Assembly: GCA_028718125.1 (NCBI GenBank) | Contig: JAQUMN010000017.1 | Coordinates: forward strand, 8,401-72,400 | Reading direction: 5' to 3' | Origin: Kiritimatiellia bacterium | GTDB taxonomy: Bacteria > Verrucomicrobiota > Kiritimatiellia > JAAZAB01 | Length of the DNA: 64,000 nt | In this document: one piece after another, positions 19,568 to 50,887 of the stretch | Layout of the letters: each line of letters starts with the position of its first letter | How positions within the stretch are numbered: position 1 is the first letter of the stretch | Program-made: the position numbers and the translations under genes | Notes under the pieces: model-generated | The model's input: the letters and a program-made list of their open reading frames with translations, nothing else | Databases searched by the model: none | Told to the model about the DNA's origin: nothing

Positions 19568-19591
19568 TACATCTCCCTGTATTTGCACTGT

Positions 19592-27782: not shown

Positions 27783-27792
27783 GAGACTCTGA

Positions 27793-33263: not shown

Positions 33264-33537
33264 GACTGCAAAAAGAATGCGGGATTCAGCGCCGATTTAC
33301 AAACATTTTTAGTAACTACCGAACTACCCGCAATTGTTAACTACGAAACACGCGAAAATCGCGAAAGATACTCCTGCAAAGCGCAGGAGGATTGGTAGAC
33401 CTCCAAACAGGTCCCGACTATTCGACAGCTTTTCTTCTTAAACAGAATTCCTGTTCCCATTTTCGTGCCTTTCGCGTATTTCGTAATTTTCTTCCCTGAT
33501 GGCAGGCGCTGCGTAGTTGACGTTTTTATTCAGGGGC

Positions 33538-34416: not shown

Positions 34417-34632
34417 AAAGCCATACAATAAACGTATTGGCCGCAAAGGGACACAAAAAAATTCAAGAGTTGGAGTGGCCGAAAAGCTGATTGCCCTGCC
34501 TGACCGCCAAAAATTCTCGCTATGGCGCAACCATGTCGCTATGTTTAACAGACACATCAGGCTCGGTGCTTTGCCGGGTGCAGGCGCCCATTGAAAGTGG
34601 CGTGGAAAAGACAACAACCAGATAGAAGGAAA

Positions 34633-35886: not shown

Positions 35887-36017
35887 CAATTAATTTGCTG
35901 CGGAGGTCCGGTGATAAGCCGCCATGCAGACGGAGTGCGAAGCCCCGAATTGCATGCTCCCGGGGTTCTCCGTTGGCAGCATTTATGATCATATTGCCTG
36001 GCGATCATTTAACATCC

Positions 36018-38265: not shown

Positions 38266-38277
38266 AATAATTGATTA
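38266..38277. promoter_or_regulatory. Candidate Fur/metalloregulator box (ATAAT-TG-ATTAT palindrome) ~77 nt upstream of feoA
   Basis: AT-rich inverted repeat 'AATAATTGATTATCG' in a GC-rich background. feoAB is classically Fur-controlled. Confidence 0.3.
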
Positions 38278-38353
38278 TCGCGACGACAATAGCTCCTTGA
38301 ACGCACTCAGCTTGGGCGTGGGGATTAATGCGCGCTTCTAATGGTAACTTGCC

Positions 38354-38590
38354 ATGAATGAAACAACGCTCGCGCTGCTGAAACAGGGTGACAAGGCAAC
38401 CGTCGTGGCCTTGCAAGGCGGTGGCGGCTTTCAACACCGAGTTCGAAGCGTTGGTTTGAAAGAGGGCAAACTGCTCCGCGTGGTCGCCAGGCATCATTTT
38501 TCAGGCCCGTTGGTTGTGGAAATCGAGCGGCGCCATATCACCATCGGACGGGGAATGGCTCGGAAAATTGTTGTTGCGCAGGTGCCATGA
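38354..38590 (+). CDS. feoA: Ferrous iron transport protein A
   Basis: 78 aa, SH3-like FeoA ('KGDKATVVAL...GLKEGKLLRVV'). Its stop overlaps the feoB start. Confidence 0.8.
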   Translation: MNETTLALLKQGDKATVVALQGGGGFQHRVRSVGLKEGKLLRVVARHHFSGPLVVEIERRHITIGRGMARKIVVAQVP

Positions 38591-40293
38591 AAACCATCCT
38601 CCTTATCGGCGATCCCAATGTCGGCAAGAGCGTGCTTTTTTCCCGGCTGACGGGCGTGGACGTCATCGCTTCGAATTATCCCGGCACGACAGTGGACTAC
38701 TTGAAGGGGCGGATGAATCTTCACGGAGAATCCGTGGAAATTCTCGATGCCCCAGGCACGTATTCGTTGGCGGCGACCAACAAGGCGGAGGAAGTGGCCG
38801 TCTCCCTGCTGGGTCAAGCCGACGTGATCGTGAATGTCGTGGACGCCACGAGTCTCGAACGCTGCCTGCTCCTGACGGTCGAACTGCTGGAGAAGCGCAA
38901 GGCGGTCATCGTGGCGTTGAACATGTGGGATGAAGCCCAACACCTGGGCATCCATATTGATGTTCGCGAATTGGAAAATATCCTGCAGGTTCCTGTCGTT
39001 CCCACGGTGGCTATCACGGCTGAAGGCATCAAAGAGCTGGTCCTCCGCCTGGATGAAGCGCGGGTTTCCGAGCGGCCCAGGCTGAAAGACAATGACCAGG
39101 TCTGGGCGGAAGTCGGGCATATTGTCCGCAAGGTGCAGACCGTGGCCCACCGGCATCATAGCATCTGGGATCGGCTGACGGATGCCACCGTCAAATCCGG
39201 CACGGGCTGGCTGTCGGCCCTGGTGATTCTGTTCGCGCTCTTCTGGATGGTCCGGCTCGTGGGGGAGGGACTTATTCGATATGGCGCTGAGCCGTTATTC
39301 GAGTTGTGTCGCGCGCCGCTCATGGCGTTGAACGATTGGCTGGAACCCGGATTTCTCCACGATGTTTTGATCGGCAAGCTGATTGACGGTAAAGTGGATT
39401 TTATCCAGTCCATGGGCATTCTGACCACCGGCCTTTTTATGCCGTTTGGCATGGTGCTGCCCTATATCGCGGCCTTCTATTTTGCGCTGGCGCTGTTGGA
39501 GGACACGGGCTATCTGCCACGGCTTGCCACAGTCACCGACAACCTGTTTCATCGGTTGGGGATGCATGGCCACGGGATCATTCCCGTCTTGCTTGGATTA
39601 GGGTGCAAGGTTCCGGGAATATTGTCGGCGCGAGCGCTGGAGACGCGCAAACAGCGTTTTATTGCCGCGACGCTCGTGGGCATTACAATTCCCTGCACCG
39701 CGCAGACCGCCATGATCTTCGGGATTCTTGGACACTACGGCGCAAAATATGTCCTGATCGTTCTCGGAACGATGGCGGCCGTGTTCCTGCTCCTGGGATT
39801 GATTCTTAACCGGACATCGCATGAGGAATGCCCGGAACTGTTCCTCGATATTCCTCCCTATCGCATGCCAAGCCTGTTGGCCGTCTTAAAAAAAACCTGG
39901 ATGCGTATCCGTTGGTTCCTGTCGGAGGCGTTGCCGCTCCTGTTTCTGGGTGTCCTGGCCGCTTGCATTTTCGATGCGGCGGGCTTAACCGCAAAACTAG
40001 CCGATCATGCGGCGCCGTTCATGCAAGGCTGGTTTGGATTGCCCGGTGCGGCTGTGCCGGCTTTGTTGAGCGGTTTTCTGCGCAAGGAGATGGCCGTGGG
40101 GATGCTGGTTCCCCTGGCACTCACGCCCGCGCAACTGACCGTTGCCGTGACGGTTTTTGCCTTTTTCCCCTGTATCGCCGCCCTGGCCGTCATGCTCAAG
40201 GAGCTGGGTATAAAGGATATGATGAAAGCCTTGGCGGCCATGATTTTGACGTCGCTGATTGTGGGCGGCATCCTGCGGCTGATGCTCATCTAA
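38587..40293 (+). CDS. feoB: Ferrous iron transporter B (N-terminal G-protein domain plus membrane permease)
   Basis: G1 motif 'GDPNVGKS' and G4 'NMWD', followed by a polytopic membrane domain. Confidence 0.85.
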   Translation: MKTILLIGDPNVGKSVLFSRLTGVDVIASNYPGTTVDYLKGRMNLHGESVEILDAPGTYSLAATNKAEEVAVSLLGQADVIVNVVDATSLERCLLLTVELLEKRKAVIVALNMWDEAQHLGIHIDVRELENILQVPVVPTVAITAEGIKELVLRLDEARVSERPRLKDNDQVWAEVGHIVRKVQTVAHRHHSIWDRLTDATVKSGTGWLSALVILFALFWMVRLVGEGLIRYGAEPLFELCRAPLMALNDWLEPGFLHDVLIGKLIDGKVDFIQSMGILTTGLFMPFGMVLPYIAAFYFALALLEDTGYLPRLATVTDNLFHRLGMHGHGIIPVLLGLGCKVPGILSARALETRKQRFIAATLVGITIPCTAQTAMIFGILGHYGAKYVLIVLGTMAAVFLLLGLILNRTSHEECPELFLDIPPYRMPSLLAVLKKTWMRIRWFLSEALPLLFLGVLAACIFDAAGLTAKLADHAAPFMQGWFGLPGAAVPALLSGFLRKEMAVGMLVPLALTPAQLTVAVTVFAFFPCIAALAVMLKELGIKDMMKALAAMILTSLIVGGILRLMLI

Positions 40294-40300
40294 GCCAGCA

Positions 40301-41044
40301 TCAATGCGGGTGCAGGTGCCGCAGGCTGTGCGGGCGTTCCAGGCCGTGGGCCAGCATCAGGGCTTCGTCGTTCAGGAGTTCCACGGTCGGGCCTTCGGCC
40401 ATGACTTTCCCGTCGTCAAGTACGATCACGCGGGAACATAGCTCGACAACAAATTCCAAATCATGGGTGGCAATAATCTTGGTGTGCTTAAATGACGCGA
40501 GCAGTTCAATCAGGCGCCGACGGCCGCGTGGATCGAGATGCGCGGAAGGCTCGTCCATGACCAGGACATCGGGTGACATGGCCAGTACCGTGGCAATGGC
40601 CACGGCGCGTTTCTCGCCTGCCGAGAGCTTGTAAGGCGGGCGGTTTCTCAGATGAGACATACCCACCCGCTCCAGCGCCGAGACTACGCGATGTTCAATT
40701 TCATTCGGAGGCAGGCCGGCGTTCAAAGGGCCAAACGCAACATCCTCAAACACGGTTGGCATGAAAAGCTGGTCATCGGGGTCCTGGAAGACCATGCCGA
40801 CAGCGCGGCGCGCCGAAACAACCGTCGCGCGCGTCAGCGGCGCGTCGCCGATGCGCACTTCGCCGCGCGTGGGCGTCAAATAACCGTTCAAATGCAGGAG
40901 CAGCGTGGATTTGCCGGCCCCGTTGGCCCCGACCAGGGCCACCGATTCGCCATGCGTGATCCGGAAAGAAACGCCTTTCAGCACATCCGTGCCGTCGGGA
41001 TAGGTGAAATGCAAGTCGCGGACTTCAACAAGATGGTGGCTCAT
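40301..41044 (-). CDS. ECF-transporter ATPase component (NikO/CbiO)
   Basis: Walker A 'GANGAGKST', signature 'LSAGEKRAV' and Walker B 'VLVMDEP'. Start taken at 'MSHHLVEV', overlapping the upstream stop (ATGA) per the ORF track. Confidence 0.8.
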
Positions 41045-41877
41045 GAACCGCCTCCTGCCACCATACGTCCCAAGGCATTGGCGAGATTCCATATGCGAGC
41101 CACGGCAAAAAACGCCGTCCAACCCCCTATAAATGCCCAATCGGTCCACCGAAAGGAAGTCTGGCACAAAACCCGGATCTCGCCATTTCCGCCGCTGGCG
41201 GATCCGCCTACGGTGGAAAAACCGCGGGATACCATAGCGCGATAAACGCGATCCGCGCGATCCATGGAGCGCAGGAAAAGATGCCCCACGAGCGAGCCAT
41301 ACACGCGCAAGCGCAAAGACCGCGGTCCGGCGGAACGGAGTTCCATGCTGCGCATCATCCGGGCGCCTTCGTCGGCGACAACGAACAGGTAGCGGTAGAG
41401 GAACAGCAGTTGGACCACAAACACCTGCGGCACGCACATCCGTTCCAAACCCGCACCAAGCCGGTGAATGCCGGTGCAGGCTATCAGCGCCAGGGCCGCG
41501 CTGACCGTCAAAAAGAAGCGGAGCATGATCGAGGCGAACGAAAGCCACCCGCCCGAAATGCTCCATGCCCCAACGCTGGCGATCGTCTGGCGGTCCAGCA
41601 AAGGATTGAACATGCCTATGACCAATGCAAACGGCACGGCGATTAGAATTTTTCGAAAAATATATCCGAACGGAATCCGTCCCAATGCAAGCAATGTGAA
41701 CGGATAGAGAAAAAAAGGCATTAGGGCGGACACTTCATAACGCGGGAACGACATGACGACCACTATGAAAATCAGGGTTGTGATGACCTTGGCCCGAGCA
41801 TCGAGACGATGCACGGGCGTGTCCAGTCGCCCCAGTTCATCCATGCGGCCAATTTCAATCCATTGTCCTATTCCCAT
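41041..41877 (-). CDS. ECF-transporter transmembrane T component (NikQ/CbiQ)
   Basis: 278 aa, CbiQ-like membrane protein. Confidence 0.75.
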   Translation of the reverse strand: MGIGQWIEIGRMDELGRLDTPVHRLDARAKVITTLIFIVVVMSFPRYEVSALMPFFLYPFTLLALGRIPFGYIFRKILIAVPFALVIGMFNPLLDRQTIASVGAWSISGGWLSFASIMLRFFLTVSAALALIACTGIHRLGAGLERMCVPQVFVVQLLFLYRYLFVVADEGARMMRSMELRSAGPRSLRLRVYGSLVGHLFLRSMDRADRVYRAMVSRGFSTVGGSASGGNGEIRVLCQTSFRWTDWAFIGGWTAFFAVARIWNLANALGRMVAGGGS

Positions 41878-41886
41878 CCGGTTAAT

Positions 41887-42930
41887 TTATACTCCCGCGT
41901 GCCGCGCTTTCAAGGCGAAACCGATCAGGCCGGCCAAGCCCAGCGTGATCAGGCCGCCCGCAATGCCTGATAAGGACGTTCCGGCGCTGATGGCTGGCCA
42001 TGGTTCAGGCTCAGCCGCGGTTTTTTCCGCAGGCGCGGCTTCGGGTTCCGTGGATTTAAAACCATAGTCCGGCAGGAAGGCGGTTTTTTCCTGTATCCGG
42101 CCTAATCCCTTGTGCAAGTTGTCTTCCGTGCCGGAGACCTCTTCTTTACCGGAGACCTTGACGATGGACCATTCCAATCCGTCAGGGTGGGTCGAGGCAA
42201 ACCAGCTTGCGGCCCCGCCGACAATCACGGTGGCGATCAATAGACCGATCAAGACCGGCCGCAGGCTATTTTGCGATTCCTCGTCCGCTCGTGCCGCAAA
42301 CAGGGCTTCCGGCCGCGCTCGGGCTACAAATGCAACCACTGCGGCCGTTGCCAGGCCTTCCACTATGCCGATGGCCAGATGAATGGGCTGCATCAGCAGA
42401 ACAAAGGCGCCAAACGGCAGTTCCGAGATGCCGGAGGCCTTGGTCTCCAGCACGACGCCGAATGCGCCCAATTGCAGTCCCACGACAGCGGCGACAATTG
42501 CGGCGATCCATGCGCGCAGGGTGCCGTGCTCATCCCGGGCAATCGCACGGTAAATGAACGGATAGGCGATAAACGCGGGAAAAAAACCAAGATTGAAAAT
42601 ATTGCACCCCAGCGCCAGCAGGCCGCCATCGGCGAAGAAAAAAGCCTGCACCACCAGGACCGACGAGATCGCTAAAAAGGCGGCGTAGGGTCCTAACAGA
42701 ATCGTCAGAATCAGGCCGCCTCCCAGGTGTCCGCTCGAGCCCGTGCCGGGGATCGAAAAATTGATCATCATGGCCGCAAAGATAAACGCGCCAAGCACGC
42801 CCATCATCGGGACCAATTTATCGTTCATGGTTTGCTTGACTTTGCGCGCGCAATACGCGATCAGTCCGGCGGTTACAATCCACATCGTCCCGCCAACGGC
42901 GGGGTTAATCAAAGCATCGGCCATATGCAT
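41887..42930 (-). CDS. Nickel/cobalt ECF transporter substrate-capture component, CbiM/NikM fused to CbiN/NikN-like C-terminus
   Basis: N-terminus 'MHMADALINP' is characteristic of CbiM/NikM. The C-terminal extension carries the 'PDGLEW' NikN/L-like motif and a final TM helix. Confidence 0.75.
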   Translation of the reverse strand: MHMADALINPAVGGTMWIVTAGLIAYCARKVKQTMNDKLVPMMGVLGAFIFAAMMINFSIPGTGSSGHLGGGLILTILLGPYAAFLAISSVLVVQAFFFADGGLLALGCNIFNLGFFPAFIAYPFIYRAIARDEHGTLRAWIAAIVAAVVGLQLGAFGVVLETKASGISELPFGAFVLLMQPIHLAIGIVEGLATAAVVAFVARARPEALFAARADEESQNSLRPVLIGLLIATVIVGGAASWFASTHPDGLEWSIVKVSGKEEVSGTEDNLHKGLGRIQEKTAFLPDYGFKSTEPEAAPAEKTAAEPEPWPAISAGTSLSGIAGGLITLGLAGLIGFALKARHAGV

Positions 42931-42960
42931 GTTACTTCTCCTATATTTGTTTGATTTCTA

Positions 42961-43764
42961 CTACTTACTTTCTTCCTGTGCAAACCCGAATGTCCATGTC
43001 AAGCCGGCCGTTGCCGTGAAATCCGGCGCGTCACCGGCAATGCGCGAGCCGGCGGCGATGTCGGCGACCAGGCTGTCGAGAATGCTGTAGCGCAAACCGG
43101 TGTTGAACATGACGACGGTATTTACCCCGCGGCGCAACTCGTCTTCCGCATATACTTCACCCACCCACTGCAGGGGATCAACGATCTTGTAGTCGAACGC
43201 TAATCCGTAGTGCAGAATATCGCCTGCATCCTCATCCGCCGGTTCGCCGATCCAGGAATAACCGACGTTGATATGCCCGCCCATCTTCTCGCAAAAGGAT
43301 TTTGAAGCGATCCAGGTGAGATCGTAATCCGTTTTGCCGCTTCCCAATCCCTTGTCTTTGTCGGACGTGGGGAACTTGACCGCGGGAACTATGGCTTGGC
43401 GGGGCAACCACGTCGTTTCAACCCAAAACTGCCATTTTACGTTGACGACCAAATCGCCGATACCGTTCTCGGAAGAGGTGCATTCCCCGCCGCTGTTTTC
43501 GTCAATTTCGGTCCGTTCCTCGAATTGTCCGCCGAACCCGGCGCCGAGTTCCACAGAGGGGATGATGCCGCATCCCACCGCGAAGGGGACATCCCAGTGT
43601 TTGCACCCGGAATCTTTCTCATACCAGCCGCCGCCTTCTATTTTGAAATCCTTGAACTCCAGCGGATCGGCGTCGTCGATGATCAACGGCCGGGCGGCAA
43701 ATGCGCCGCTTGCCGCCAGGACTATGGCGGTAACCAAAACGCCGACTATTTTTCTCTCGCTCAT
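42961..43764 (-). CDS. Outer-membrane beta-barrel protein (MetA-pathway/'transporter' PF13557-like) heading the nik operon
   Basis: Signal peptide 'MSERKIVGVLVTAIVLAASGAFA', alternating amphipathic strands and a C-terminal '...TWTF' aromatic terminus. Confidence 0.6.
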   Translation of the reverse strand: MSERKIVGVLVTAIVLAASGAFAARPLIIDDADPLEFKDFKIEGGGWYEKDSGCKHWDVPFAVGCGIIPSVELGAGFGGQFEERTEIDENSGGECTSSENGIGDLVVNVKWQFWVETTWLPRQAIVPAVKFPTSDKDKGLGSGKTDYDLTWIASKSFCEKMGGHINVGYSWIGEPADEDAGDILHYGLAFDYKIVDPLQWVGEVYAEDELRRGVNTVVMFNTGLRYSILDSLVADIAAGSRIAGDAPDFTATAGLTWTFGFAQEESK

Positions 43765-43844
43765 GTTTCGCGCTCCTTTCGTGTTTTTGCGTCGGCAAAT
43801 CCTGGGTTGCGCGTTACGGTGTCCGGCCGACACTTACGGCGTCG

Positions 43845-43869
43845 TAATACGATTTGTAAAAACGTGTTA
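43845..43869. promoter_or_regulatory. Putative NikR operator 1 (TAATAC-N13-GTGTTA)
   Basis: A 6-N13-6 palindrome with one mismatch, lying inside the first copy of a ~70-bp direct repeat upstream of the OMP-nikMNQO operon. Confidence 0.4.
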
Positions 43870-43987
43870 TCAATAGACCGAAAAAAGCAGCCGACTTTAA
43901 TCGCGCATGACTTTAACTCCTTTCCCCATTGTTGAGGCGGCAACCGTTGTTTGGTCATGGTGGCGCTTGGCCACCCATACGGCGCCA

Positions 43988-44012
43988 TAATACGATTTAT
44001 AAATAAGTATTA
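43988..44012. promoter_or_regulatory. Putative NikR operator 2 (TAATAC-N13-GTATTA, perfect)
   Basis: A perfect 6-bp inverted repeat with a 13-nt AT-rich spacer, inside the second copy of the direct repeat and just downstream of the nikR stop. Confidence 0.45.
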
Positions 44013-44050
44013 CCGATAAACTAAAAAAACACCACCAACCGAATAACATA

Positions 44051-44464
44051 TTATTTCGATGCCTGGCCGGAGGCGGTGATTGTCAGGCCGCCATGCTTGA
44101 CGCCCCGCAGGGCGATCAGGCGGTCGGCCAGAACCTTTACCCGCGATGCGGGTCCGCGGACCATGATGACCTCCAGGCAGTTATCGTGGTCCAGGTGGAC
44201 GTGAGTTGTGCTGAGGATCAGGTCGTGGTCCTCGTGCTGCAAATCGGTCAAATGATCCTGCAATTTGTGTTGTTGATGTTCATAGGCCAGGGAGATCACG
44301 CCGACCACATTACCTTGCGCGCTGCGCCACTGTTCGTCCACCAGGTTCTTGCGGATCAGGTCGCGCACGGCTTCCGAACGGTTCTGATACTCATGCCGGC
44401 TGATAAACTGGTCGAAGGCGGCCAGCAGATCCTGCTCCAAGGCGGTGGAAAATCGGGTGATCAT
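44051..44464 (-). CDS. nikR: Nickel-responsive transcriptional regulator NikR
   Basis: N-terminal ribbon-helix-helix domain. The C-terminal ACT-like domain carries His/Cys nickel ligands ('HEHQQHKLQDH...THVHLDHDNCLEV'). Confidence 0.85.
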   Translation of the reverse strand: MITRFSTALEQDLLAAFDQFISRHEYQNRSEAVRDLIRKNLVDEQWRSAQGNVVGVISLAYEHQQHKLQDHLTDLQHEDHDLILSTTHVHLDHDNCLEVIMVRGPASRVKVLADRLIALRGVKHGGLTITASGQASK

Positions 44465-44536: not shown

Positions 44537-44947
44537 TTACGGAGCCGGGTCCGGCGGGTTTTTAGGCGCGAACTGCTTGCAGGTATCTGTGGCTTCCACC
44601 TCCCGGTTGGATCGGCTACAACGCTGGAGGAAGGGGTTGACCACGTAATGGGCGCAATGGCGGCACAGCCGGCTGACCGTTTCGAGCACCTCCCGCTCGT
44701 CAAATACCTTGGGCGGCGGCGGCAGGTCCTGGCGCCCGAAGCCCGGCACAACTTTTTTTGCCTTGAACGAAACCGCGGCTTCGTCGGGAAATACATGGCC
44801 GCAGGCGGTGCAGGACAATGTTTCGCCCGCGCGCTTGAATCCCTCGTATACGGGTTCGCGTCTTAAAAGCGTGTCCTTCCCGCAGGACGAACACATGATG
44901 GCAACCGGCCGCGAACCCGTTTTGCGATCCATTTTTTCCATGGCCAT
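44537..44947 (-). CDS. Small Cys-rich zinc-ribbon protein (CxxC x2 plus CxHC...C), unknown function
   Basis: 136 aa. 'CSSCG...CTACGH' and 'CRHCAHYVVNPFLQRC' are present. It runs co-directionally 72 nt upstream of nikR. Confidence 0.45.
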   Translation of the reverse strand: MAMEKMDRKTGSRPVAIMCSSCGKDTLLRREPVYEGFKRAGETLSCTACGHVFPDEAAVSFKAKKVVPGFGRQDLPPPPKVFDEREVLETVSRLCRHCAHYVVNPFLQRCSRSNREVEATDTCKQFAPKNPPDPAP

Positions 44948-45153
44948 CAGTCTGGGAAAAAAGCGTTGTGAATGTCAAGAATGGAAATGCGCCGCGTTGG
45001 AAATGCGCCGCGGAGAAGAGTGATCCGGCTGTCGTTTTGTGCTTGCGATGGACGCCGGCCATGTTATGTTCTTTCATTTCTATTTAAATTACCGGTTTGC
45101 CTGGGTGAAGAGCTTCGGCAAAGATGGAATAGTATAAAAGAGGAACTGCTTGT

Positions 45154-46335
45154 ATGACAAAAGACGCCGTTCAGGGCAAATCGATTACATTTTCAATCGA
45201 GAAGAAGGCATGCGTGGTGCCGGAGCATCCGATCATTCCGTTCATTGAAGGCGACGGCACGGGGCCGGACATCTGGCGGGCTGCTGTGCGTGTGTTGGAT
45301 GGAGCCGTCGCCAAAGCCTACGGCGGGCGGCGGCAGATCTGCTGGCGGGAATTGCTGGCGGGCGAAAAAGCGTTCAAACAGACCGGCAACTGGCTGCCGG
45401 ACGAAACGGTTGCCGCCTTCAAGCAATATCTGGTCGGCATCAAGGGGCCGCTCACCACCCCGATCGGCGGCGGGCATCGCAGTTTAAACGTCGCCTTGCG
45501 CCGGCTGCTCGATCTTTACGTTTGCCTGCGGCCGGTGCGCTGGTTCGAGGGCGTCCCGAGCCCTGTCAAGGAACCCGGCAAGGTGGATATGGTCGTGTTC
45601 CGCGAAAACACGGAAGACGTTTATGCCGGCTTGGAAGTCAGTGCCGGTAGCCAGCAAGCTCAAAAACTCATTGGCTTCCTGAAAACAGAATTCGGCTGGA
45701 ACATTCGTCCGGATTCGGGCATCGGCGTCAAGCCCATCAGCGAGACCTGCAGCAAACGCCTGGTCCGGGCCGCCATCGAGTATGCCATCCAAAACAAGCG
45801 CCGAAGTGTGACGCTCGTCCACAAGGGCAATATCCAGAAATTTACGGAGGGCGCCTTCCTGGCCTGGGGCTATGAAGTGGCCAAAGAATATAGCGGCCGC
45901 ATTGCGGTCAAAGACGCTATAGCGGACATCTTCTTCCAGCAGGCCCTGACCCGGCCCGGGGAATTCGATGTTATCGCCACCATGAATCTGAACGGGGACT
46001 ACATGTCCGATGCGCTGGCGGCGCAAGTCGGCGGCATTGGCATTGCCCCGGGCGGCAACATCAACTATCAGACCGGGCACGCTATTTTCGAGGCTACGCA
46101 CGGTACGGCGCCTAAGTATGCCGGCCAGGACAAGGTCAACCCCGGCTCCGTAATCCTCTCCGGCGAAATGATGTTCCGCTACATGGGCTGGGCGGAAGCG
46201 GCCGACCTGATTATCCGCGGCCTCGGCGAGGCCATCCGGCGCCGGAAAGTGACCTACGATTTCCACCGGCTGATGGACCATGCGACGCTGTTAAAATGCT
46301 CGGAATTTGCCGACGAAATCATAACCCACATGTAA
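45154..46335 (+). CDS. icd: Isocitrate dehydrogenase (NADP-type, homodimeric IDH/IMDH family)
   Basis: '[14 protein letters not shown]', '[19 protein letters not shown]' and '[25 protein letters not shown]' motifs. Confidence 0.85.
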
Positions 46336-46348
46336 AATCCGCGGCCCA

Positions 46349-47578
46349 ATGCAACAAATCACCGAACTGACATTTTTAACGCAATTGGCCAAGCGGTCTA
46401 AACTGCCGACGCCGGAATATGCCGTCACGCCTTTGGACCGCAAAGCCCTGAAGGGCCTGCTGGATACATGGCAGAAAGCCGTGGTCAAGCCGGATATCCT
46501 GGCCGGCAAGAAAGGGAAAGCCGGCCTGGTCAAGGTTGTGGACGATCCCGCGCGCGCCCTGCAGGAAATCAACCGCCTGCTCAACGCCGATTTCGGCGGC
46601 AAAATACCGCGCACGGTGTATCTGACGCGCTATATTCCCGCCGAGTTGGAAATCTACACGGCCATCACGTATAACTCCAGTTTCCTGGGGCCGTCGCTGA
46701 CCCTTTCGCTGAAGGGCGGCATGGACATCGAAACCGTGGAAGACACATACAAGCGCACGATCCCGGTGGACGTCTACAAGGGACTGGATGCCTACCAGGC
46801 AAGCCAGATCTTATCGGATTTGCAATGCCCCAAGAAAATTGTCAGCGCATTTTCCCGCTGCCTGGTAAATTTCTGGGATTTCTTCATTACCAGCGGCATG
46901 CGGATGTGCGAAATCAATCCATGGCGGGTGACGCCGGCCGGGGAATTTTATGTCTGCGATTTCAAGGCCGTCCCGGACGAGTCCAATTTCAAAGCCGGGA
47001 ACCTGGCGATCACGTTCCCGGAATATCCGGAGACCATTACGCCGTTCGAGGAGGAAATGAAGGAACTGGCCGCCTCCTCTTACCAGGGCCAGCTGCATAT
47101 ATCCGACCTGCATGGCGACCTGATCCTGCCGATTCTGTTTGGCGGCGGCGCCTCGACGATCATCACCGAAACGCTCTGCACCTGCGGCGGCAGTCCGATC
47201 TTTCTTTCCGATTTCGGCGGTAATCCGACCTACGAGCGCATGCGCCAGGCCACCGCCGTGTGTTTTAAACATCATCTGAAGAAGGCGGCGCTGCTGCTCA
47301 TTCTGGGCGGGAAAGCCAATAATACGCTGATCGACGTGACTTTTCAGGCGATCGGTGATGCCCTGACCCATTACGTGGAAGAGCACGGCCCCGTCTTTCT
47401 GCCGGTCGTGATCGGCCGCGGCGGGCCGCGCCTGGCCAAAGGCCTGATGATCATGAAAGAAATCATGGAGACCTTGAAACTGCCGTATGTCATCTTCGGT
47501 TACGATACGCCGGTGACCCTGGTGGCCGAATATGCCGCCCGCCTGGCCAAGGCGTTTGCGCCGATGAGGAAACCATGA
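46349..47578 (+). CDS. aclB: ATP-citrate lyase small subunit (SucC-like ATP-grasp; AclB-type) or citryl-CoA synthetase large subunit
   Basis: 409 aa with a succinyl-CoA synthetase beta-like ATP-grasp. Its stop overlaps the next gene's start. Confidence 0.65.
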   Translation: MQQITELTFLTQLAKRSKLPTPEYAVTPLDRKALKGLLDTWQKAVVKPDILAGKKGKAGLVKVVDDPARALQEINRLLNADFGGKIPRTVYLTRYIPAELEIYTAITYNSSFLGPSLTLSLKGGMDIETVEDTYKRTIPVDVYKGLDAYQASQILSDLQCPKKIVSAFSRCLVNFWDFFITSGMRMCEINPWRVTPAGEFYVCDFKAVPDESNFKAGNLAITFPEYPETITPFEEEMKELAASSYQGQLHISDLHGDLILPILFGGGASTIITETLCTCGGSPIFLSDFGGNPTYERMRQATAVCFKHHLKKAALLLILGGKANNTLIDVTFQAIGDALTHYVEEHGPVFLPVVIGRGGPRLAKGLMIMKEIMETLKLPYVIFGYDTPVTLVAEYAARLAKAFAPMRKP

Positions 47579-49695
47579 AAGCCACACAACTCGCGGATTT
47601 ATTGAGCAAAGGCGACCGGGTGGCGGTATCCAACATCACGGGGCGCGAATCCAGCATGGTCACCATTGTCTCGCATCGTTACTGCGGCAACATCGTGGGC
47701 GGCTGGGCGCTCGGCAAAGGCGGACAGACGATCGAATACGAACCCGGTAAGACCATTCCGGTGTTTGCGACCTTCGATGAATTGCTCAAAAGCCTGCCGG
47801 CCAAAAAACACCCCAACAAGGTCATTGTCTATTCGCCGCCGGAAGCCGTCTATGGCGAGGTGAAGGAAGTGGTTTCCTTTGGCAAGAAACACATCAAGAC
47901 GATTTTTATCATTACCGAGCATGTCGCCATTGAGGTGACCGCCAAGATCGCCTCGCTGGCGCGCGAAGCCGGCATAGATGTGATCGGCTGTAATACCCTG
48001 GGGATGATCAACACCTATGACGGCGTTCGCGTGGGCGCCGTGGGTGGAGACAACCCCGGTGAAAGTTTCAAAAAGGGCAGTGCCGCAATTATATCCAACA
48101 GCGGCAACATGGTCACAACCATGGCCACGTACCTGATGTCGGCGGGCATCGGCACCTCGTTCGGCCTTTCCACGGGCAAAGACGCGCTGATCCTGACGCC
48201 CTTGAAGGACCTGCTGGCACTGGCGGACAAGGATCGTCACACCCGGATCATCGTGCTCTACATCGAGCCGGGCGGCCTTTACGAGAAAGAGGCCGTGGAT
48301 CTGCTCAAGCGGGCGAAAAATGCCAAGCCTGTGATTGTCTATGTGGCCGGTAAAATCCTCGAAACCCAGAACGTGTCGCTCGGCCATGCCGGTGCCGTGG
48401 TGGAAGGCGCCTTTACCACGGCCTCGGCCAAAATGCAGCTGTTTGACGACTATTTCGGGGTCGAGGCCTTCGATCCCCAGAAACGCTATGAACACACCCC
48501 GAAATTGCGGCAGGCCCTGCTGCGGGGCATCCGCATTCAAACCTTGCACACCCTGCCGCAGGCCGCCAGCCTGGTGTATCGCGTCTGCGAATGGGAGCGC
48601 GATTTCAGTCCCCACGAAACCCTCCAGTTGAATCCCTGGTTTGTCAACCTCGGCGAACTGGGCAAGAAACTGCCGGCGCCGCTCATCTTGACGCCGGGCA
48701 AGATCGCCGAACCCTACGCCACGCAATTTGCCTCCCTGGCCGAGAGGAAACTGGGCAAAATGGCAACCCAGCGGTCCATGCGTAACGCCAGCTACGCCTC
48801 CGGCAACGACGGGCAGGCCGCATCCATTTACGGCTATGCGGTGGCCGATCTCATGCAACGCGGCAATTTTGCCGAAGCGCTCATTCTGCAGTGGTTGGGC
48901 GAATTACCCCAGCATGCCTTCGAAGCGCGGCTCGTGGAAATGTGCCTGATCGCATCGTTGAGCAACGGGCCGGGCACCATTTCCGCCCAGGCCGCCAAAT
49001 TATCGGCTTCGGCCGGCAACTCCCCCCATACGGGCATGATTGCCGCGCTGGCCAGTGTGGGTGACGTGCATGGCGGCAACGGCCGGGAAGCGATTGAATA
49101 CCTGCTGAAGGTGTTCGGGAGCACGGACCTGGTCGATCCCTACAATCCAAAAGCCTCCAGCGTGAACCTGGAAAGCCTCGTGTTGCAGGAGGCGGAAGCG
49201 TTCAAAACCCGGAAAGCCATTGCCCAGGAATCCGGGACCGGCTACATTAAAATTCCGTGCCTTGGGCATCCGGTGTTCAAGGACAAGGACGTTAATTTTG
49301 ATCCGCGCGAAGAGGCCATTTATGCCTATCTGCAGGAGCAGGGCCTCTACAACATATTCCTGGATTTTTATCGCCGGCTGGCGCAGACCATGAAACACAT
49401 CGGCGCCACATCCAAGGTGCTGGCGGTGAACGTGGATGCCGCCATTGCCTGTATCTGGCTGGGAATCTGCTGGAAACTGCTGAAGGACAGGCGCATTACC
49501 CTGAAGCGTGCCATAGACATCCCCCTGGTTGCTTTTGCCTTGGGCCGCGCTGCCGGCGCCGCCGGGGAATTTCTGGATCACCATGATCATGGCACCGACA
49601 TGGACATGCGCGTGCCTGCTGCGGAATGTGAAATATTGACCAAGCCTCGGGACCTGGCGCCGGCGGGTAAAAAAGCAGGTCGTAGCCGCGTCTAA
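47575..49695 (+). CDS. aclA: ATP-citrate lyase large subunit (CoA-binding plus SucD-like phosphohistidine domain plus citrate-synthase-like C-terminal domain; AclA-type)
   Basis: 706 aa. 'GHAGAVVEG' is the phospho-His loop. The C-terminal ~250 aa resemble citrate synthase / citryl-CoA lyase. Confidence 0.65.
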   Translation: MKATQLADLLSKGDRVAVSNITGRESSMVTIVSHRYCGNIVGGWALGKGGQTIEYEPGKTIPVFATFDELLKSLPAKKHPNKVIVYSPPEAVYGEVKEVVSFGKKHIKTIFIITEHVAIEVTAKIASLAREAGIDVIGCNTLGMINTYDGVRVGAVGGDNPGESFKKGSAAIISNSGNMVTTMATYLMSAGIGTSFGLSTGKDALILTPLKDLLALADKDRHTRIIVLYIEPGGLYEKEAVDLLKRAKNAKPVIVYVAGKILETQNVSLGHAGAVVEGAFTTASAKMQLFDDYFGVEAFDPQKRYEHTPKLRQALLRGIRIQTLHTLPQAASLVYRVCEWERDFSPHETLQLNPWFVNLGELGKKLPAPLILTPGKIAEPYATQFASLAERKLGKMATQRSMRNASYASGNDGQAASIYGYAVADLMQRGNFAEALILQWLGELPQHAFEARLVEMCLIASLSNGPGTISAQAAKLSASAGNSPHTGMIAALASVGDVHGGNGREAIEYLLKVFGSTDLVDPYNPKASSVNLESLVLQEAEAFKTRKAIAQESGTGYIKIPCLGHPVFKDKDVNFDPREEAIYAYLQEQGLYNIFLDFYRRLAQTMKHIGATSKVLAVNVDAAIACIWLGICWKLLKDRRITLKRAIDIPLVAFALGRAAGAAGEFLDHHDHGTDMDMRVPAAECEILTKPRDLAPAGKKAGRSRV

Positions 49696-49699
49696 AAGC

Positions 49700-49737
49700 A
49701 ATGTGGCCGCGACTTCTGTGTCGCGGCCACATGCTAA
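49700..49737. terminator. Bidirectional rho-independent terminator hairpin (AATGTGGCCGCGAC-ttctgt-GTCGCGGCCACAT)
   Basis: A perfect 13-bp GC-rich stem between convergent genes, with a U-tract on the minus-strand side. Confidence 0.6.
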
Positions 49738-49763: not shown

Positions 49764-50579
49764 TTACCAATTCGCGTTAACAATGGGGAGAATTTTCCAG
49801 ATGCTTTCTTTGCCCCACGCGATATTGAGAACGCCGATCTGCAGGCCATTCAATATGGATGTGTAGTTGATCACGCCAAGCTGGAGCCCCTTGACTTCAT
49901 TGGCGAAATTCAAGCCCACCCACTGGGCGCCATCCAACTTGTCGGCCCAGTTAATCAATCCCGTCTGCCAACAGGCTTCTTCCATAGCTGCGTTGATGAT
50001 GCCGAACTGAGCATCAATCGCACTGCCGGCGGCATTAATGCCACCCACCTGGCCGCCGGCCACGCTGCCGCTGTTCAAGTTGATCAAGCCGACTTCCAAG
50101 CCCTCAGCATTTCCGCCAACCATGTTCAGGATGCCGTAATCATAGCCGGACAAATTCCCGCTGGTCAAGTTGATCAGGCCTGCTTCCGCGCCGGAGACAT
50201 TGCCGCCGACCAGGTTGATGAACGACACCGTTGAGCCGGACACGTTCCCGGCCACAAAGTTGATGGCGCCCAATTGACCGCCGGTCACGTTGCCGCCGAC
50301 CAGGTTAATGATACCAAGTTGCAGACCTCTCTGGTCCTTGTTCACTTGGTTCGCAATACCCAGGTCAACGCCGGTCACATTTTCATTGGCCCCGTAGATC
50401 AGGTTGATCCGCAGGCCGTTGACCGAGGAACTGTCGCTGAGAATAGCAACCGGGCTGACGAGTGAGAGTTGGAACGGATAGGCTTTTTCGGTTACTGTCG
50501 CTTTTGGAGCCTGCGCAACCGCACTGCTGACCAGCCCGATTACACACGCGAGACTGAATAATATCGAATAACGTTTCAT
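49764..50579 (-). CDS. Secreted protein built of ~13-aa tandem repeats (G-x-I-N-x-V-G-G-N-V-x-G), beta-solenoid-like
   Basis: Signal peptide 'MKRYSILFSLACVIGLVSSAVAQA'. At least 10 consecutive 'GLINL/GIINLVGGNVTG'-type repeats follow. Confidence 0.6.
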   Translation of the reverse strand: MKRYSILFSLACVIGLVSSAVAQAPKATVTEKAYPFQLSLVSPVAILSDSSSVNGLRINLIYGANENVTGVDLGIANQVNKDQRGLQLGIINLVGGNVTGGQLGAINFVAGNVSGSTVSFINLVGGNVSGAEAGLINLTSGNLSGYDYGILNMVGGNAEGLEVGLINLNSGSVAGGQVGGINAAGSAIDAQFGIINAAMEEACWQTGLINWADKLDGAQWVGLNFANEVKGLQLGVINYTSILNGLQIGVLNIAWGKESIWKILPIVNANW

Positions 50580-50887
50580 TTCTTTTCCCTTCATTGCACG
50601 TCATGATTGAGACGAAATAACCGTTTGTTTAGTAAACCCAGCACCACTCACATGTCGTTCAATCACCTCCTTCCGGATTTGTAATCATTTTGAGTATACA
50701 CAAACATGCAATATATATTTGAATTATTACAAGCACCTGCTGCTTTGTCAATATATTTTTAAAATAGTCAACGGGCGGGGACATCATTCAATGATTACGT
50801 GCTTGTCAACTGGTGTGATCTCATGAAATAATTACAAAAGTTAAACGGTTAAAGGGCGAGTTGAAATGTCGATCGTGATTACGCGCC

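What the first reader, a model, noticed from the sequence alone, without database searches (positions are those of the whole stretch)
45154..49695. Two-subunit ATP-citrate lyase immediately downstream of isocitrate dehydrogenase
46349..47578 (SucC-like ATP-grasp) and 47575..49695 (CoA-binding plus phospho-His 'GHAGA' loop plus citrate-synthase-like C-terminus) have the AclB/AclA architecture, with overlapping stop and start. Bacterial ACL is largely restricted to reductive-TCA autotrophs (Chlorobi, Nitrospirae, Aquificae, Campylobacterota). Its presence here, beside icd and in a genome otherwise rich in heterotrophic glycan-catabolic genes, points either to rTCA capacity or to an unusual cytosolic acetyl-CoA-generating citrate shunt.
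Basis: partly seen in the sequence, partly recalled or inferred. Interest (0 to 1): 0.55.

Follow-up and report, generated by a model that had tools for sequence, protein, structure and literature searches.

The report
Fused CCS–CCL-type ATP-citrate lyase operon
A Kiritimatiellae (anaerobic sugar-fermenting) genome carries, just after its isocitrate dehydrogenase gene, an intact two-subunit ATP-citrate-lyase-like enzyme from a widespread but never-characterised lineage that sits between the known bacterial forms, so the gene call is right but it does not show that the organism fixes CO2.

Summary

The pair is not SucCD and not canonical Chlorobium-type AclBA. Trees for all three domains place it in a tight clade (55-94% identity) of fused CcsB-Ccl enzymes. 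That clade is sister to the proteobacterial 'type II ACL' and next to Hydrogenobacter CCS/CCL. It lacks the ~212-aa type II insertion. Every catalytic residue is invariant (H271, H499, H565, D621).

Thiel et al. 2017 already noted this lineage, but it has no biochemistry and databases mostly call it 'hypothetical'. It occurs in at least 80 confirmed species genomes (up to ~578 candidates), all MAGs in what I sampled: PVC phyla, Spirochaetota, Fibrobacterota and syntrophic Desulfobacterota.

About a fifth of loci have NADP-IDH (two non-orthologous types) and/or aconitase adjacent. None has recurrent OGOR, PFOR or fumarate reductase. Canonical ACL loci show the same adjacency, so direction stays unresolved. 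Close relatives lack exactly this 3.36-kb pair. rTCA is neither shown nor excluded.

The parts
45138..45144 (+). Shine-Dalgarno-like AAGAGGA, 9 nt upstream of the icd start
   Evidence: Read directly from the sequence. No sigma-70-like + strand promoter was found in the 206-nt upstream intergenic region.
45154..46335 (+). icd, NADP-dependent isocitrate dehydrogenase (393 aa), first gene of the unit
   Evidence: Pfam Iso_dh E 6e-92. NCBIfam equivalog NF005425 scores 626 bits against a cutoff of 490. It is 100% identical to P0323, annotated 'MAG: isocitrate dehydrogenase (NADP+) [Kiritimatiellae bacterium]'.
46349..47578 (+). Small (beta, CcsA/AclB-like) subunit, 409 aa. ATP-grasp at aa 13-192 (nt 46385-46924); citrate-binding domain at aa 235-396 (nt 47051-47536).
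   Evidence: Pfam PF08442 plus PF16114. The best solved relative is H. thermophilus CCS large subunit 6hxq_B (154 bits), ahead of M. concilii ACLY-A (104) and C. limicola AclB (67). N324, T326 and R357 align with human ACLY N346, T348 and R379 of the citrate loop (the role of the human residues is from memory of Sun et al. 2010).
47575..49695 (+). Large (alpha) subunit, 706 aa, a CcsB-like domain fused to a Ccl-like domain
   Evidence: Pfam CoA_binding/Ligase_CoA/Succ_CoA_lig plus Citrate_synt. Best solved relatives are 6hxq_A CcsB (128 bits) and 6hxp_A CCL. The AF2 model (pLDDT 77) aligns over about 700 columns to ACL large subunits 6hxj_B, human ACLY and 6hxi_B.
47575..48474 (+). N-terminal CoA-binding/SucD-like domain (aa 1-300) with the phospho-histidine loop GHAGA (nt 48382-48396; H271 at nt 48385-48387)
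   Evidence: H271 is invariant in 25 family members. The N-domain superposes on 6hxq_A with TM 0.82 and rmsd 2.8 A.
48475..48786 (+). Linker (aa 301-404) with the lineage motif LNPWFVN (aa 352-358). It is about 212 aa shorter than the corresponding part of type II ACL.
   Evidence: pLDDT is below 50 for aa 349-413. The GHAGA-to-HGG spacing is 229 aa here and 441 aa in P0125/P0127. The motif is shared with type II as LKPWFVN.
48787..49659 (+). C-terminal citryl-CoA-lyase/citrate-synthase-like domain (aa 405-695). Catalytic residues: H499 (nt 49069-49071), H565 (49267-49269), D621 (49435-49437). Arg578, Arg658 and Arg679 are also invariant.
   Evidence: H565 and D621 align with C. limicola AclA H491 and D543 (these residues are named as ACL markers in PMC13147460). 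H499 sits in an HGG motif kept in CCL, citrate synthase and type II ACL but replaced by FGG in type I ACL. All are invariant in alignment A1. Coordinates were checked.
49701..49732 (.). 13-bp perfect GC-rich hairpin between the convergent large-subunit gene and the 276-aa minus-strand gene; the shared terminator
   Evidence: (T-run on the minus strand). In relatives that lack the S-L pair, the homologous hairpin follows icd directly.

Best explanation
icd, the small subunit and the large subunit form one transcription unit that ends at the 49701-49732 hairpin. The small and large pair encodes a genuine ACL-type enzyme that interconverts citrate + ATP + CoA with acetyl-CoA + oxaloacetate + ADP + Pi.

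Inferred mechanism, by homology with CCS/CCL and ACL. The ATP-grasp subunit binds ATP and citrate. ATP phosphorylates His271 on the mobile GHAGA loop of the large subunit. The phosphate passes to citrate to give citryl-phosphate, and CoA bound on the N-domain attacks it to give citryl-CoA. The fused citrate-synthase-like C-domain (His499, His565, Asp621, with Arg578/658/679) then cleaves citryl-CoA. Every step is reversible.

The enzyme belongs to the uncharacterised fused CcsB-Ccl lineage. That lineage is sister to type II ACL and next to Aquificae CCS/CCL. It is not type I AclBA.

Physiologically it works with NADP-IDH, and with an aconitase encoded elsewhere, as a three-step bridge between acetyl-CoA + oxaloacetate and 2-oxoglutarate. 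I think that in this anaerobic, sugar-fermenting Kiritimatiellae organism the bridge serves a branched, non-autotrophic TCA network rather than a complete CO2-fixing rTCA cycle.

The direction is not settled. My split within this explanation is roughly even between two options. One is citrate formation with ATP conservation, a citrate-synthase substitute as in Desulfobacter postgatei. The other is cleavage of citrate made by reductive carboxylation of 2-oxoglutarate.

What is shown: gene structure, domain architecture, conserved residues, phylogenetic position and neighbourhood statistics. What is inferred: the chemistry, co-transcription and the physiological role. My confidence in the enzyme identity alone is about 0.8. 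For the whole statement, including the non-autotrophic role, it is about 0.55.
For: Architecture and domain scores.

Nearest solved relatives are CCS and CCL for all three modules. The full-length fold matches ACL large subunits.

Catalytic residues are aligned and invariant, and the citrate-loop residues are conserved.

NJ trees with 100 bootstraps for the N-domain, the CCL domain and the small subunit all give a monophyletic family (100%). It is sister to type II ACL (100, 93 and 100%), then Hydrogenobacter CCS, with type I separate. This matches the published placement (PMC5459899).

The small subunit lies directly upstream in 82 of 86 loci. A true IDH and/or aconitase lies within 10 kb in 19 of 86 loci, and in 10 of the 37 loci with at least 6 kb on each side. 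There are at least 5 different gene orders and two non-orthologous NADP-IDH subfamilies, which indicates functional coupling.

No OGOR, PFOR or fumarate reductase lies in the window or recurs beside the pair.

Operon structure: 13-nt gap, ATGA overlap and a shared hairpin.

Reversibility precedent: D. postgatei ACL (Moller 1987, cited in PMC12743299). The reaction is near equilibrium at -8 kJ/mol (PMC13147460).
Against: No member of this lineage has been assayed.

By phylogenetic bracketing, both neighbours are tied to citrate cleavage in rTCA organisms: type II ACL in Endoriftia, Magnetococcus and G. metallireducens (PMC3522073, PMC6315080, PMC3998878), and Aquificae CCS/CCL.

I could not inspect the rest of any genome for OGOR, PFOR, fumarate reductase or citrate synthase.

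Canonical type I ACL loci also have aconitase and IDH adjacent (L086, L087), so the neighbourhood does not separate a branched pathway from a full cycle.

Close relatives keep icd but lack the pair at this site. That argues against the pair being the only citrate-forming enzyme, unless it is encoded elsewhere in those genomes.

No promoter was detected upstream of icd.
Confidence: 0.55

Rival explanations
1. The pair is the citrate-cleaving step of a complete reductive TCA cycle, so this Kiritimatiellae organism, and many other carriers, can fix CO2 autotrophically or mixotrophically.
For: The sister clade (type II ACL) and the next outgroup (CCS/CCL) operate in rTCA organisms. Thiel et al. 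read the lineage as an rTCA marker in Planctomycetes OTU-14. icd and acn adjacency is the same as in canonical ACL loci. Cleavage is the mildly favoured direction thermodynamically. OGOR, PFOR and fumarate reductase are common in anaerobes and could lie outside the window.
Against: No OGOR, PFOR or fumarate reductase lies in 64 kb of window, and none recurs within 10 kb of the pair in 86 loci. In contrast, the Geobacter type II locus sits beside a TfrAB-like fumarate reductase and ppc. Carriers are overwhelmingly lineages known as fermenters or syntrophs. The pair is absent from this site in very close relatives.
Confidence: 0.2
2. The pair is a regulated catabolic enzyme for exogenous citrate or a related tricarboxylate. 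It splits the substrate into acetyl-CoA (then acetate plus ATP) and oxaloacetate (then pyruvate). It would be an ATP-neutral alternative to CitDEF citrate lyase.
For: A GntR-family regulator lies directly upstream on the same strand in 14 of 86 loci. The patchy presence among close relatives is typical of accessory catabolic traits.
Against: No citrate or tricarboxylate transporter lies beside the pair in the window or recurs in the loci. The window itself has no GntR. The recurrent partners are IDH and aconitase, which are not needed for citrate fermentation through oxaloacetate.
Confidence: 0.1
3. The enzyme acts on a different substrate pair, for example another hydroxy-acid or dicarboxylate CoA ligase coupled to a lyase, or it is a diverged succinyl-CoA synthetase with an accessory domain. 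Under this reading the ACL-like chemistry on citrate is wrong.
For: All matches to curated citryl-CoA lyase and SucCD models are below cutoff. Identity to any characterised enzyme is at most 32-38%. Nothing in the lineage has been assayed.
Against: The ACL citrate-binding domain PF16114 scores above its cutoff. The citrate-loop residues N324, T326 and R357 are conserved. The full citrate-synthase catalytic set is invariant. The recurrent neighbours are the two enzymes that process citrate.
Confidence: 0.08
4. This is a eukaryote-style citrate shunt: IDH and ACL supply acetyl-CoA for lipid synthesis, echoed by the coaD-plsX-fabH-fabD cluster 1-5 kb downstream.
For: Synteny of the pair with rsmD-coaD-yceD-plsX-fabH holds in the window and in L001/L002.
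Against: The same fatty-acid cluster follows icd in relatives that lack the pair (L093), so the linkage reflects the chromosomal site and not the pair. No fatty-acid genes recur beside the pair outside this clade. A bacterium has no compartment barrier that would make such a shunt useful (established knowledge).
Confidence: 0.04

Closest known systems
Fused ccsB-ccl 'heterodimeric ACL' of uncultured Planctomycetes, Phycisphaerae and Spirochaetes (Thiel et al. 2017, Front Microbiol 8:943, PMC5459899)
   Same: Same two-gene architecture, with the small CCS subunit fused to CCL. Same phylogenetic position between Aquificae/Leptospirillum CCS-CCL and type II ACL. The window protein is 59-60% identical to Spirochaetes DG_61 (P0116) and Phycisphaerae SM23_30 (P0058), which come from the same MAG set cited there.
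   Different: Here it is in Kiritimatiellae, placed as the tail of an icd operon. The paper treated the lineage only as a tree branch and as an rTCA marker. It gave no residue analysis, no distribution, no neighbourhood analysis and no biochemistry.
Type II ATP-citrate lyase (Hugler & Sievert 2011; Ca. Endoriftia, Magnetococcus, Thioflavicoccus; homologues in Geobacter metallireducens P0125/P0270 and Variovorax P0127)
   Same: Sister clade in all three domain trees. It shares the lineage motifs L[NK]PWFVN, HGGNG, HPVF[KR]DKxVNxDPRE and VNVDAxIA, has identical HGG-to-His and His-to-Asp spacing, and has two subunits with the small one upstream.
   Different: The type II large subunit is about 908 aa, with about 212 extra residues between the phospho-His loop and HGG. 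Identity is only 33-38%. The published type II primer motifs VAKEEWF and NGFEAIA read AKMQLF and NGREAIE here. The taxa are proteobacterial, and in Geobacter the context includes ppc and a TfrAB-like fumarate reductase.
Citryl-CoA synthetase (CcsAB) plus citryl-CoA lyase (Ccl) of Hydrogenobacter thermophilus (PDB 6HXQ, 6HXP)
   Same: Best-scoring solved relatives of all three modules (154, 128 and 56 bits). The HGG histidine is retained. About 32% identity.
   Different: In Hydrogenobacter there are three separate polypeptides and citryl-CoA is released between two enzymes. Here CcsB and Ccl are one chain, so the intermediate is presumably channelled as in ACL.
Type I ATP-citrate lyase AclBA (Chlorobium limicola 6HXJ; Methanothrix 6HXI; human ACLY)
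   Same: Same overall subunit and domain plan, and the best full-length fold match. The catalytic His and Asp of the lyase module are conserved.
   Different: 21-26% identity, in a separate clade. Type I has FGG where this family has HGG. The large subunit is about 100 aa shorter (about 608 aa).
Succinyl-CoA synthetase SucCD
   Same: Homologous ATP-grasp and CoA-binding/phospho-His modules.
   Different: SucD has no citrate-synthase-like domain. SucC/SucD models score far below cutoff. SucC lacks the ACL citrate-binding domain, which is present here.

Membership tests
Fused CcsB-Ccl heterodimeric ACL lineage (Thiel et al. 2017) | The CCS small-subunit homologue and the CCL homologue are fused in one ORF, preceded by a CcsA/AclB-like ORF | tested here: met
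   The pair order is conserved in 82 of 86 loci.
Fused CcsB-Ccl heterodimeric ACL lineage (Thiel et al. 2017) | Phylogenetic position between Aquificae CCS/CCL and type II ACL, clustering with the Spirochaetes, Phycisphaerae and Planctomycetes MAG proteins | tested here: met
   NJ bootstrap trees of three modules. 59-60% identity to P0116 (Spirochaetes DG_61) and P0058 (Phycisphaerae SM23_30).
Fused CcsB-Ccl heterodimeric ACL lineage (Thiel et al. 2017) | ATP-dependent citrate cleavage activity | not testable with these tools
   I found no biochemical data for any member. No cultured carrier was found.
Type II ACL (Hugler & Sievert 2011) | Falls inside the clade that contains the Endoriftia, Magnetococcus and Geobacter sequences | tested here: not met
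   It is sister to that clade, not nested in it (type II is monophyletic at 100/93/100%). At 50% clustering the family forms its own single cluster.
Type II ACL (Hugler & Sievert 2011) | Long (~900 aa) large subunit with an insertion between the CoA-ligase part and the lyase core. I inferred this feature from P0125, P0127 and P0133, not from the original definition, which I could not read. | tested here: not met
   The window protein is 706 aa. The GHAGA-to-HGG spacing is 229 aa against 441 aa.
Type I ACL (AclBA, KEGG K15230/K15231) | Beta subunit with ATP-grasp plus citrate-binding; alpha subunit with CoA-binding, phospho-His and a CCL module | tested here: met
Type I ACL (AclBA, KEGG K15230/K15231) | Lyase catalytic residues equivalent to C. 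limicola AclA H491 and D543 | tested here: met
   H565 and D621 align with them and are invariant.
Type I ACL (AclBA, KEGG K15230/K15231) | Clusters with Chlorobium, Nitrospira and Campylobacterota AclA/AclB | tested here: not met
   21-26% identity. Type I (L086, C. limicola, M. concilii) forms a separate, 100%-supported group.
CCS/CCL two-enzyme system (Aquificaceae, Leptospirillum) | CcsA, CcsB and Ccl are three separate polypeptides | tested here: not met
   The CcsB-like and Ccl-like parts are one 706-aa ORF with no internal stop.
CCS/CCL two-enzyme system (Aquificaceae, Leptospirillum) | Closest sequence similarity to H. thermophilus CcsA, CcsB and Ccl among characterised enzymes | tested here: met
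   6hxq_B at 154 bits, 6hxq_A at 128 bits and 6hxp_A at 56 bits are the top hits.
Succinyl-CoA synthetase (SucCD) | Passes the SucC/SucD family cutoffs, and the alpha subunit ends after the CoA-ligase domain | tested here: not met
   101 bits against a cutoff of 375, and 136 against 336. About 400 extra C-terminal residues include a Citrate_synt domain.
Reductive TCA cycle (pathway membership) | [quoted passage not shown] | not testable with these tools
   Only the 64-kb window and 10-kb flanks of related loci were readable. None of these genes was seen there.

The most novel reading that the evidence does not exclude
Hundreds of uncultured 'heterotrophic' anaerobes (Kiritimatiellia, Phycisphaerae and other Planctomycetota, Spirochaetota, Fibrobacterota, Lentisphaeria, syntrophic Desulfobacterota) carry an unannotated citrate-cleaving enzyme that closes a complete reductive TCA cycle. 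If so, surveys keyed to aclAB or ccsAB/ccl miss a large reservoir of mixotrophic CO2 fixation. A second unexcluded reading has probability of about 0.3 and somewhat lower impact: the same enzyme is the 'missing', ATP-conserving citrate synthase of these anaerobes.
Probability: 0.15. Interest if true: 0.8.

Novelty: new member of a known kind. Interest (0 to 1): 0.45.

Why it matters
ACL and CCS/CCL genes are used as the diagnostic markers of the reductive TCA cycle in genome and metagenome surveys. This lineage is common: at least 80 confirmed species-level genomes, possibly several hundred. It is strongly conserved (55-60% identity across phyla, with all catalytic residues invariant). Public records mostly label it 'hypothetical protein', 'CoA-binding protein', 'citrate/2-methylcitrate synthase' or 'succinyl-CoA synthetase alpha', so marker-based surveys neither count it nor exclude it.

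Whichever way it runs, it changes the reconstructed central carbon metabolism of major uncultured anaerobic polysaccharide degraders and syntrophs. Cleavage would mean reductive carbon flow. Citrate formation would mean ATP-conserving citrate synthesis. The lineage also documents an evolutionary intermediate between the two-enzyme CCS/CCL system and fused ACLs.

For this window specifically, the practical message is a caution: the gene pair is real and probably active, but on its own it is not evidence of autotrophy.

Tried and rejected
(1) SucCD reading: rejected.

(2) Canonical type I ACL membership: rejected by the trees and by identity.

(3) Recovering full-length Chlorobium AclA by searching with a 100-aa fragment taken from a PDB alignment returned only short fragments. 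I recovered a canonical aclB and a frameshifted aclA from locus L086 instead. The type I reference is therefore partial.

(4) My first neighbourhood analysis used greedy ORF calling with blastp clustering. It miscounted IDH: it dropped real genes such as L006 icd, and phmmer did not link the two IDH subfamilies. I replaced it with tblastn counts.

(5) I tried to infer direction from neighbours. This failed because canonical ACL loci show the same acn/icd adjacency.

(6) I looked for the icd of the relative that has the pair without icd, hoping to find a citrate synthase beside it. Instead I found relatives with icd but without the pair. That is informative about gain and loss, but not about direction.

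(7) Exact look-ups of the window's large subunit and of P0323 found no contig on record. The source is known only as a 79-kb Kiritimatiellae MAG contig.

(8) The sigma-70 promoter scan found nothing on the + strand upstream of icd. Rfam and tRNA scans of the whole window were empty.

(9) The search for cultured carriers found none among the named cluster members or the top 80 genomes.

(10) Literature searches for this enzyme in Kiritimatiellota, Phycisphaerae, Smithella and related lineages found only Thiel et al. 2017, plus a report that a Smithella draft genome lacked a detectable citrate synthase. That report is only suggestive.

(11) The figure '578 genomes' may include type II ACL, because one search pattern (Y[VI]EPGGxYE) also fits P0125. 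Only the 80 listed loci (55-94% identity) are confirmed members.

Full report
OBSERVATION. The icd product passes NCBI's NADP-IDH equivalog model (626 bits, cutoff 490). The 409-aa protein carries an ATP-grasp domain and the ACL citrate-binding domain PF16114. The 706-aa protein carries CoA-binding and CoA-ligase domains followed by a citrate-synthase C-terminal domain. The small-subunit stop and large-subunit start overlap as ATGA, and icd is only 13 nt upstream. The GHAGA loop is at residues 270-274. GC content and GC3 match the neighbouring genes.

WHAT IT IS NOT. It is not succinyl-CoA synthetase. SucC and SucD models score 101 and 136 bits against cutoffs of 375 and 336, and SucD has no lyase domain. 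It is also not the Chlorobium-type (type I) ACL. Among solved structures the best sequence matches are the Hydrogenobacter thermophilus enzymes. These are citryl-CoA synthetase (6hxq_B at 154 bits for the small subunit, 6hxq_A at 128 bits for the N-half of the large subunit) and citryl-CoA lyase (6hxp_A for the C-half). They score ahead of Methanothrix ACL, human ACLY and C. limicola AclBA at 65-67 bits.

WHAT IT IS. An exhaustive search of 1.84 billion cluster representatives shows that all full-length close relatives collapse into one 50%-identity cluster (P0095). The next full-length relatives are ~908-aa proteins from Geobacter metallireducens and Variovorax at 38-41% identity.

The published PCR primers for 'type II ACL' (PMC3522073) translate to VAKEEWF and NGFEAIA. 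Those motifs occur at the expected positions in the ~908-aa proteins, which identifies them as the type II lineage. Compared with them, the window protein lacks about 212 residues between the phospho-His loop and the HGG motif (229 aa against 441 aa). It keeps all the other spacings and several lineage-specific motifs.

I built neighbour-joining trees with 100 bootstraps for the N-terminal SucD-like domain, the lyase domain and the small subunit. All three give the same picture. The window family is monophyletic (100%) and sister to type II ACL (100, 93 and 100%). Hydrogenobacter CcsB/CcsA comes next, and type I ACL (a canonical locus L086, C. limicola, M. concilii) forms a separate group at 21-26% identity.

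An AlphaFold model (mean pLDDT 77; the linker at 349-413 is disordered) aligns over about 700 columns to ACL large subunits. Its N-domain superposes on CcsB with TM 0.82.

This is the arrangement that Thiel et al. 2017 described in passing. [quoted passage not shown] Two of my family members are the Spirochaetes DG_61 and Phycisphaerae SM23_30 proteins from that MAG set. The lineage is therefore known as a tree branch. I found no biochemistry, no name and no cultured carrier.

IS IT FUNCTIONAL? In a 25-sequence family alignment spanning 58-91% identity, the following are all invariant:
- the phospho-histidine H271;
- the lyase residues H565 and D621, which align with C. limicola AclA H491 and D543, the residues used as ACL markers in PMC13147460;
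- a third histidine, H499;
- three arginines: R578, R658 and R679.

H499 lies in an HGG motif shared with citrate synthase, CCL and type II ACL. Type I ACLs have FGG at that position. In the small subunit, N324, T326 and R357 align with human ACLY N346, T348 and R379. I recall these as citrate-binding residues from Sun et al. 2010, and I did not verify that here. The enzyme looks fully competent.

DISTRIBUTION. The window's IDH is 100% identical to a protein annotated from a Kiritimatiellae MAG (79-kb contig). The closest large-subunit match (94%) is a Kiritimatiellaeota MAG from Lac Pavin.

A scan of one genome per GTDB species returned 578 candidate loci. The 80 listed are 55-94% identical, and all of them are MAGs. 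They come from Kiritimatiellia, Verrucomicrobiota, Planctomycetota (Phycisphaerae, Pirellulales, Thermoguttaceae, Sedimentisphaerales), Lentisphaeria/Victivallales, Spirochaetota, Fibrobacterota, Desulfobacterota (Smithella, Syntrophaceae, Desulfomonilia), Anaerolineales, Bacillota and a few Nitrospiraceae. One search pattern also fits type II ACL, so 578 is an upper bound. Source annotations are 'hypothetical protein', 'citrate/2-methylcitrate synthase' or 'succinyl-CoA synthetase alpha subunit/citrate synthase'.

GENOMIC CONTEXT. The window is heterotroph-like. It holds alpha/beta-hydrolase esterases, AraC regulators, PFK, xylose-isomerase-like barrels, an MFS transporter and a long run of metal-uptake genes. 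Downstream of the pair lie rsmD, coaD, yceD, plsX, fabH and fabD, then glnA and serA. No OGOR, PFOR, fumarate reductase, aconitase or conventional citrate synthase lies in the 64 kb.

Across 86 loci, using tblastn so that the counts do not depend on ORF calling:
- the small subunit is immediately upstream in 82;
- an icd-type NADP-IDH lies within 10 kb in 10;
- a second, non-orthologous NADP-IDH (PRK08299 subfamily, confirmed) lies within 10 kb in 7;
- a PRK07229-type aconitase lies within 10 kb in 10;
- a GntR regulator lies directly upstream in 14.

A true IDH and/or aconitase is present in 19 of 86 loci, and in 10 of the 37 loci with at least 6 kb on each side. At least five gene orders occur: icd-S-L; acn-icd-S-L; S-L-acn-icd; S-L-icd; and gntR-S-L with divergent icd or acn. 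For a single-copy gene the chance expectation is well under 1%. The variety of arrangements and the two IDH types argue for repeated selection for linkage. The enzyme is therefore functionally coupled to the citrate-isocitrate-2-oxoglutarate segment. The same adjacency is seen at canonical type I ACL loci (aclB-aclA-acn in L086; acn-icd-aclB-aclA in L087), so it does not reveal the direction of flux.

A PRESENCE/ABSENCE POLYMORPHISM. Close Kiritimatiellia relatives differ at exactly this site. Nucleotide alignment shows window 45154-46335 (icd) matching L093 10001-11182. The match resumes at window 49694, which corresponds to L093 11190. So window 46336-49693, which is precisely the spacer plus both subunit genes, is absent in L093 and in L090-L092 (icd 91-92% identical). 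There the same GC-rich hairpin follows icd directly. L001 and L002 (large subunit 91%) have the pair but no adjacent icd. L006 (94%), L008 (76%) and L009 (73%) share the window's icd-S-L order. The more distant L008 and L009 keep icd-S-L, so loss or relocation in the L090/L093 lineage is more parsimonious than a recent insertion here, though this is not proven. The pattern supports co-transcription from the icd promoter with a shared terminator. It also shows that the pair is not rigidly tied to icd.

HOW IT MOST LIKELY WORKS. By homology with CCS/CCL and ACL, the steps are:
1. ATP bound by the ATP-grasp subunit phosphorylates H271.
2. The phosphate passes to citrate, giving citryl-phosphate.
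3. CoA attacks to give citryl-CoA.
4. The fused lyase domain cleaves citryl-CoA into acetyl-CoA and oxaloacetate.

The overall reaction is close to equilibrium (-8 kJ/mol at 1 mM; PMC13147460). ACL is known to run backwards with ATP gain in Desulfobacter postgatei (Moller et al. 1987, cited in PMC12743299).

I put about 0.8 on this enzymology. For physiology I favour, at about 0.55 overall, a role as a reversible bridge between acetyl-CoA + oxaloacetate and 2-oxoglutarate in a branched, non-autotrophic TCA network.

Arguments for citrate formation: the carriers are fermenters and syntrophs that must make glutamate, S-L-acn-icd operons resemble citrate synthase-acn-icd biosynthetic clusters, and a Smithella draft genome was reported without a citrate synthase (PMC5606693).

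Arguments for cleavage: thermodynamics, the phylogenetic bracket (type II ACL in Endoriftia and in G. metallireducens, where it underlies CO2-fixing growth on formate in PMC3998878; and Aquificae CCS/CCL), and the dispensability of the pair in close relatives that retain icd.

A complete rTCA cycle is neither shown nor excluded (rival, about 0.2). The 'citrate shunt for lipid synthesis' idea is weak, because the fatty-acid cluster also follows icd in relatives that lack the pair.

NOVELTY AND VERDICT. The gene call is right, but the family assignment needs correcting: this is the fused CCS-CCL lineage, sister to type II ACL, not Chlorobium-type AclBA. The inference of autotrophy is unsupported. 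The window's copy is a new member of a lineage already noted in the literature. What this analysis adds:
- the residue-level case for activity;
- the ~212-aa difference from type II;
- the breadth of distribution in uncultured anaerobic heterotrophs;
- the statistical link to IDH and aconitase;
- the clean indel among close relatives.

Interest is moderate. The lineage is large, conserved, mis-annotated and functionally untested, and a simple enzyme assay plus a genome census would settle whether it marks hidden CO2 fixation, an ATP-saving citrate synthase substitute, or neither.

LIMITS. The trees are distance-based and use partial reference sequences reconstructed from PDB alignments and a frameshifted metagenomic aclA. 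Only 10-kb flanks of related loci were readable. No whole-genome inventory could be made.

Noticed in passing
window 46336-49693 compared with L093:11183-11189 and L090:11180-11363: Exact 3,358-bp presence/absence polymorphism. The spacer plus both ACL-like genes are missing in close Kiritimatiellia relatives (icd 91-92% identical), which otherwise keep the synteny icd-hairpin-hyp(-)-rsmD-coaD-yceD-plsX-fabH. A third configuration (L001/L002) has the pair but no adjacent icd. Whether the pair lies elsewhere in the genomes that lack it is unknown.
   Followed up: partly
window 49764-50594 (- strand): 276-aa protein with no Pfam match and a signal-peptide-like N-terminus. It is built of repeated G-x-I-N-L-V-G-G-N-V-S-G-like units, with a 45-nt period seen at 50189-50311. 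It is conserved next to this site in relatives (61-82% identity in L001, L006, L090, L093), whether or not the ACL-like pair is present.
   Followed up: partly
window 31612-44464: A 13-kb run of metal-homeostasis genes: ZnuA, ABC-3 and an ABC ATPase (31612-34656), Nramp (35838-37271), FeoB (38587-40293), a CbiO-like ATPase and CbiM-PDGLE Ni/Co uptake (40301-42930), a MetA-pathway-like outer-membrane protein (42961-43833) and NikR (44051-44464). The NikR and CbiM part is syntenic in L001 and L090.
   Followed up: no
window 44537-44947 (- strand): 136-aa Cys-rich zinc-ribbon-like ORF between nikR and icd, with only a sub-threshold Pfam hit. It is conserved at 75% next to nikR in L001.
   Followed up: no
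window 13854-16811, 16928-19588, 25158-27926 (- strand): Three very large ORFs (985, 886 and 922 aa) with no Pfam domain at E<=0.001, among esterases, an amidohydrolase and sugar-isomerase-like barrels. They may be uncharacterised glycan-active or surface proteins.
   Followed up: no
P0164 (725 aa, ENA metagenomes): An apparently independent CcsB-Ccl fusion. Its lyase half groups with H. thermophilus CCL (99% bootstrap; motifs IPGYGHRYY and LNVDGAIG) and not with the window family or type II ACL. The CcsB-Ccl fusion may therefore have arisen more than once.
   Followed up: partly
L088 (Geobacter metallireducens RCH3, contig AGJM01000033.1) 3396-14867: The type II ACL pair of G. metallireducens sits between a divergent PEP carboxylase and a CBS-domain gene, followed by a three-gene thiol:fumarate-reductase-like set (flavoprotein, Fe-S, CCG domain). 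This is an rTCA-flavoured cluster, unlike anything beside the window's pair.
   Followed up: no
L035:4590-7883 and two other family loci: A ~1,100-aa multidomain Fe-S flavoprotein (Fer2_4, Pyr_redox_2, 4Fe-4S dicluster, BFD-like 2Fe-2S, DAO) lies just downstream of the ACL-like pair in 3 loci, including Phycisphaerae SM23_30. Its function and any link to the pair are unknown.
   Followed up: no
L086 and L087 (ENA long-read metagenome contigs): Canonical type I aclA, and in L087 also acn, icd and aclB, are broken into several short ORFs by frameshifts. These are probably long-read assembly errors. This explains why a database search with a Chlorobium AclA fragment returned only 120-175-aa 'proteins'.
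   Followed up: partly
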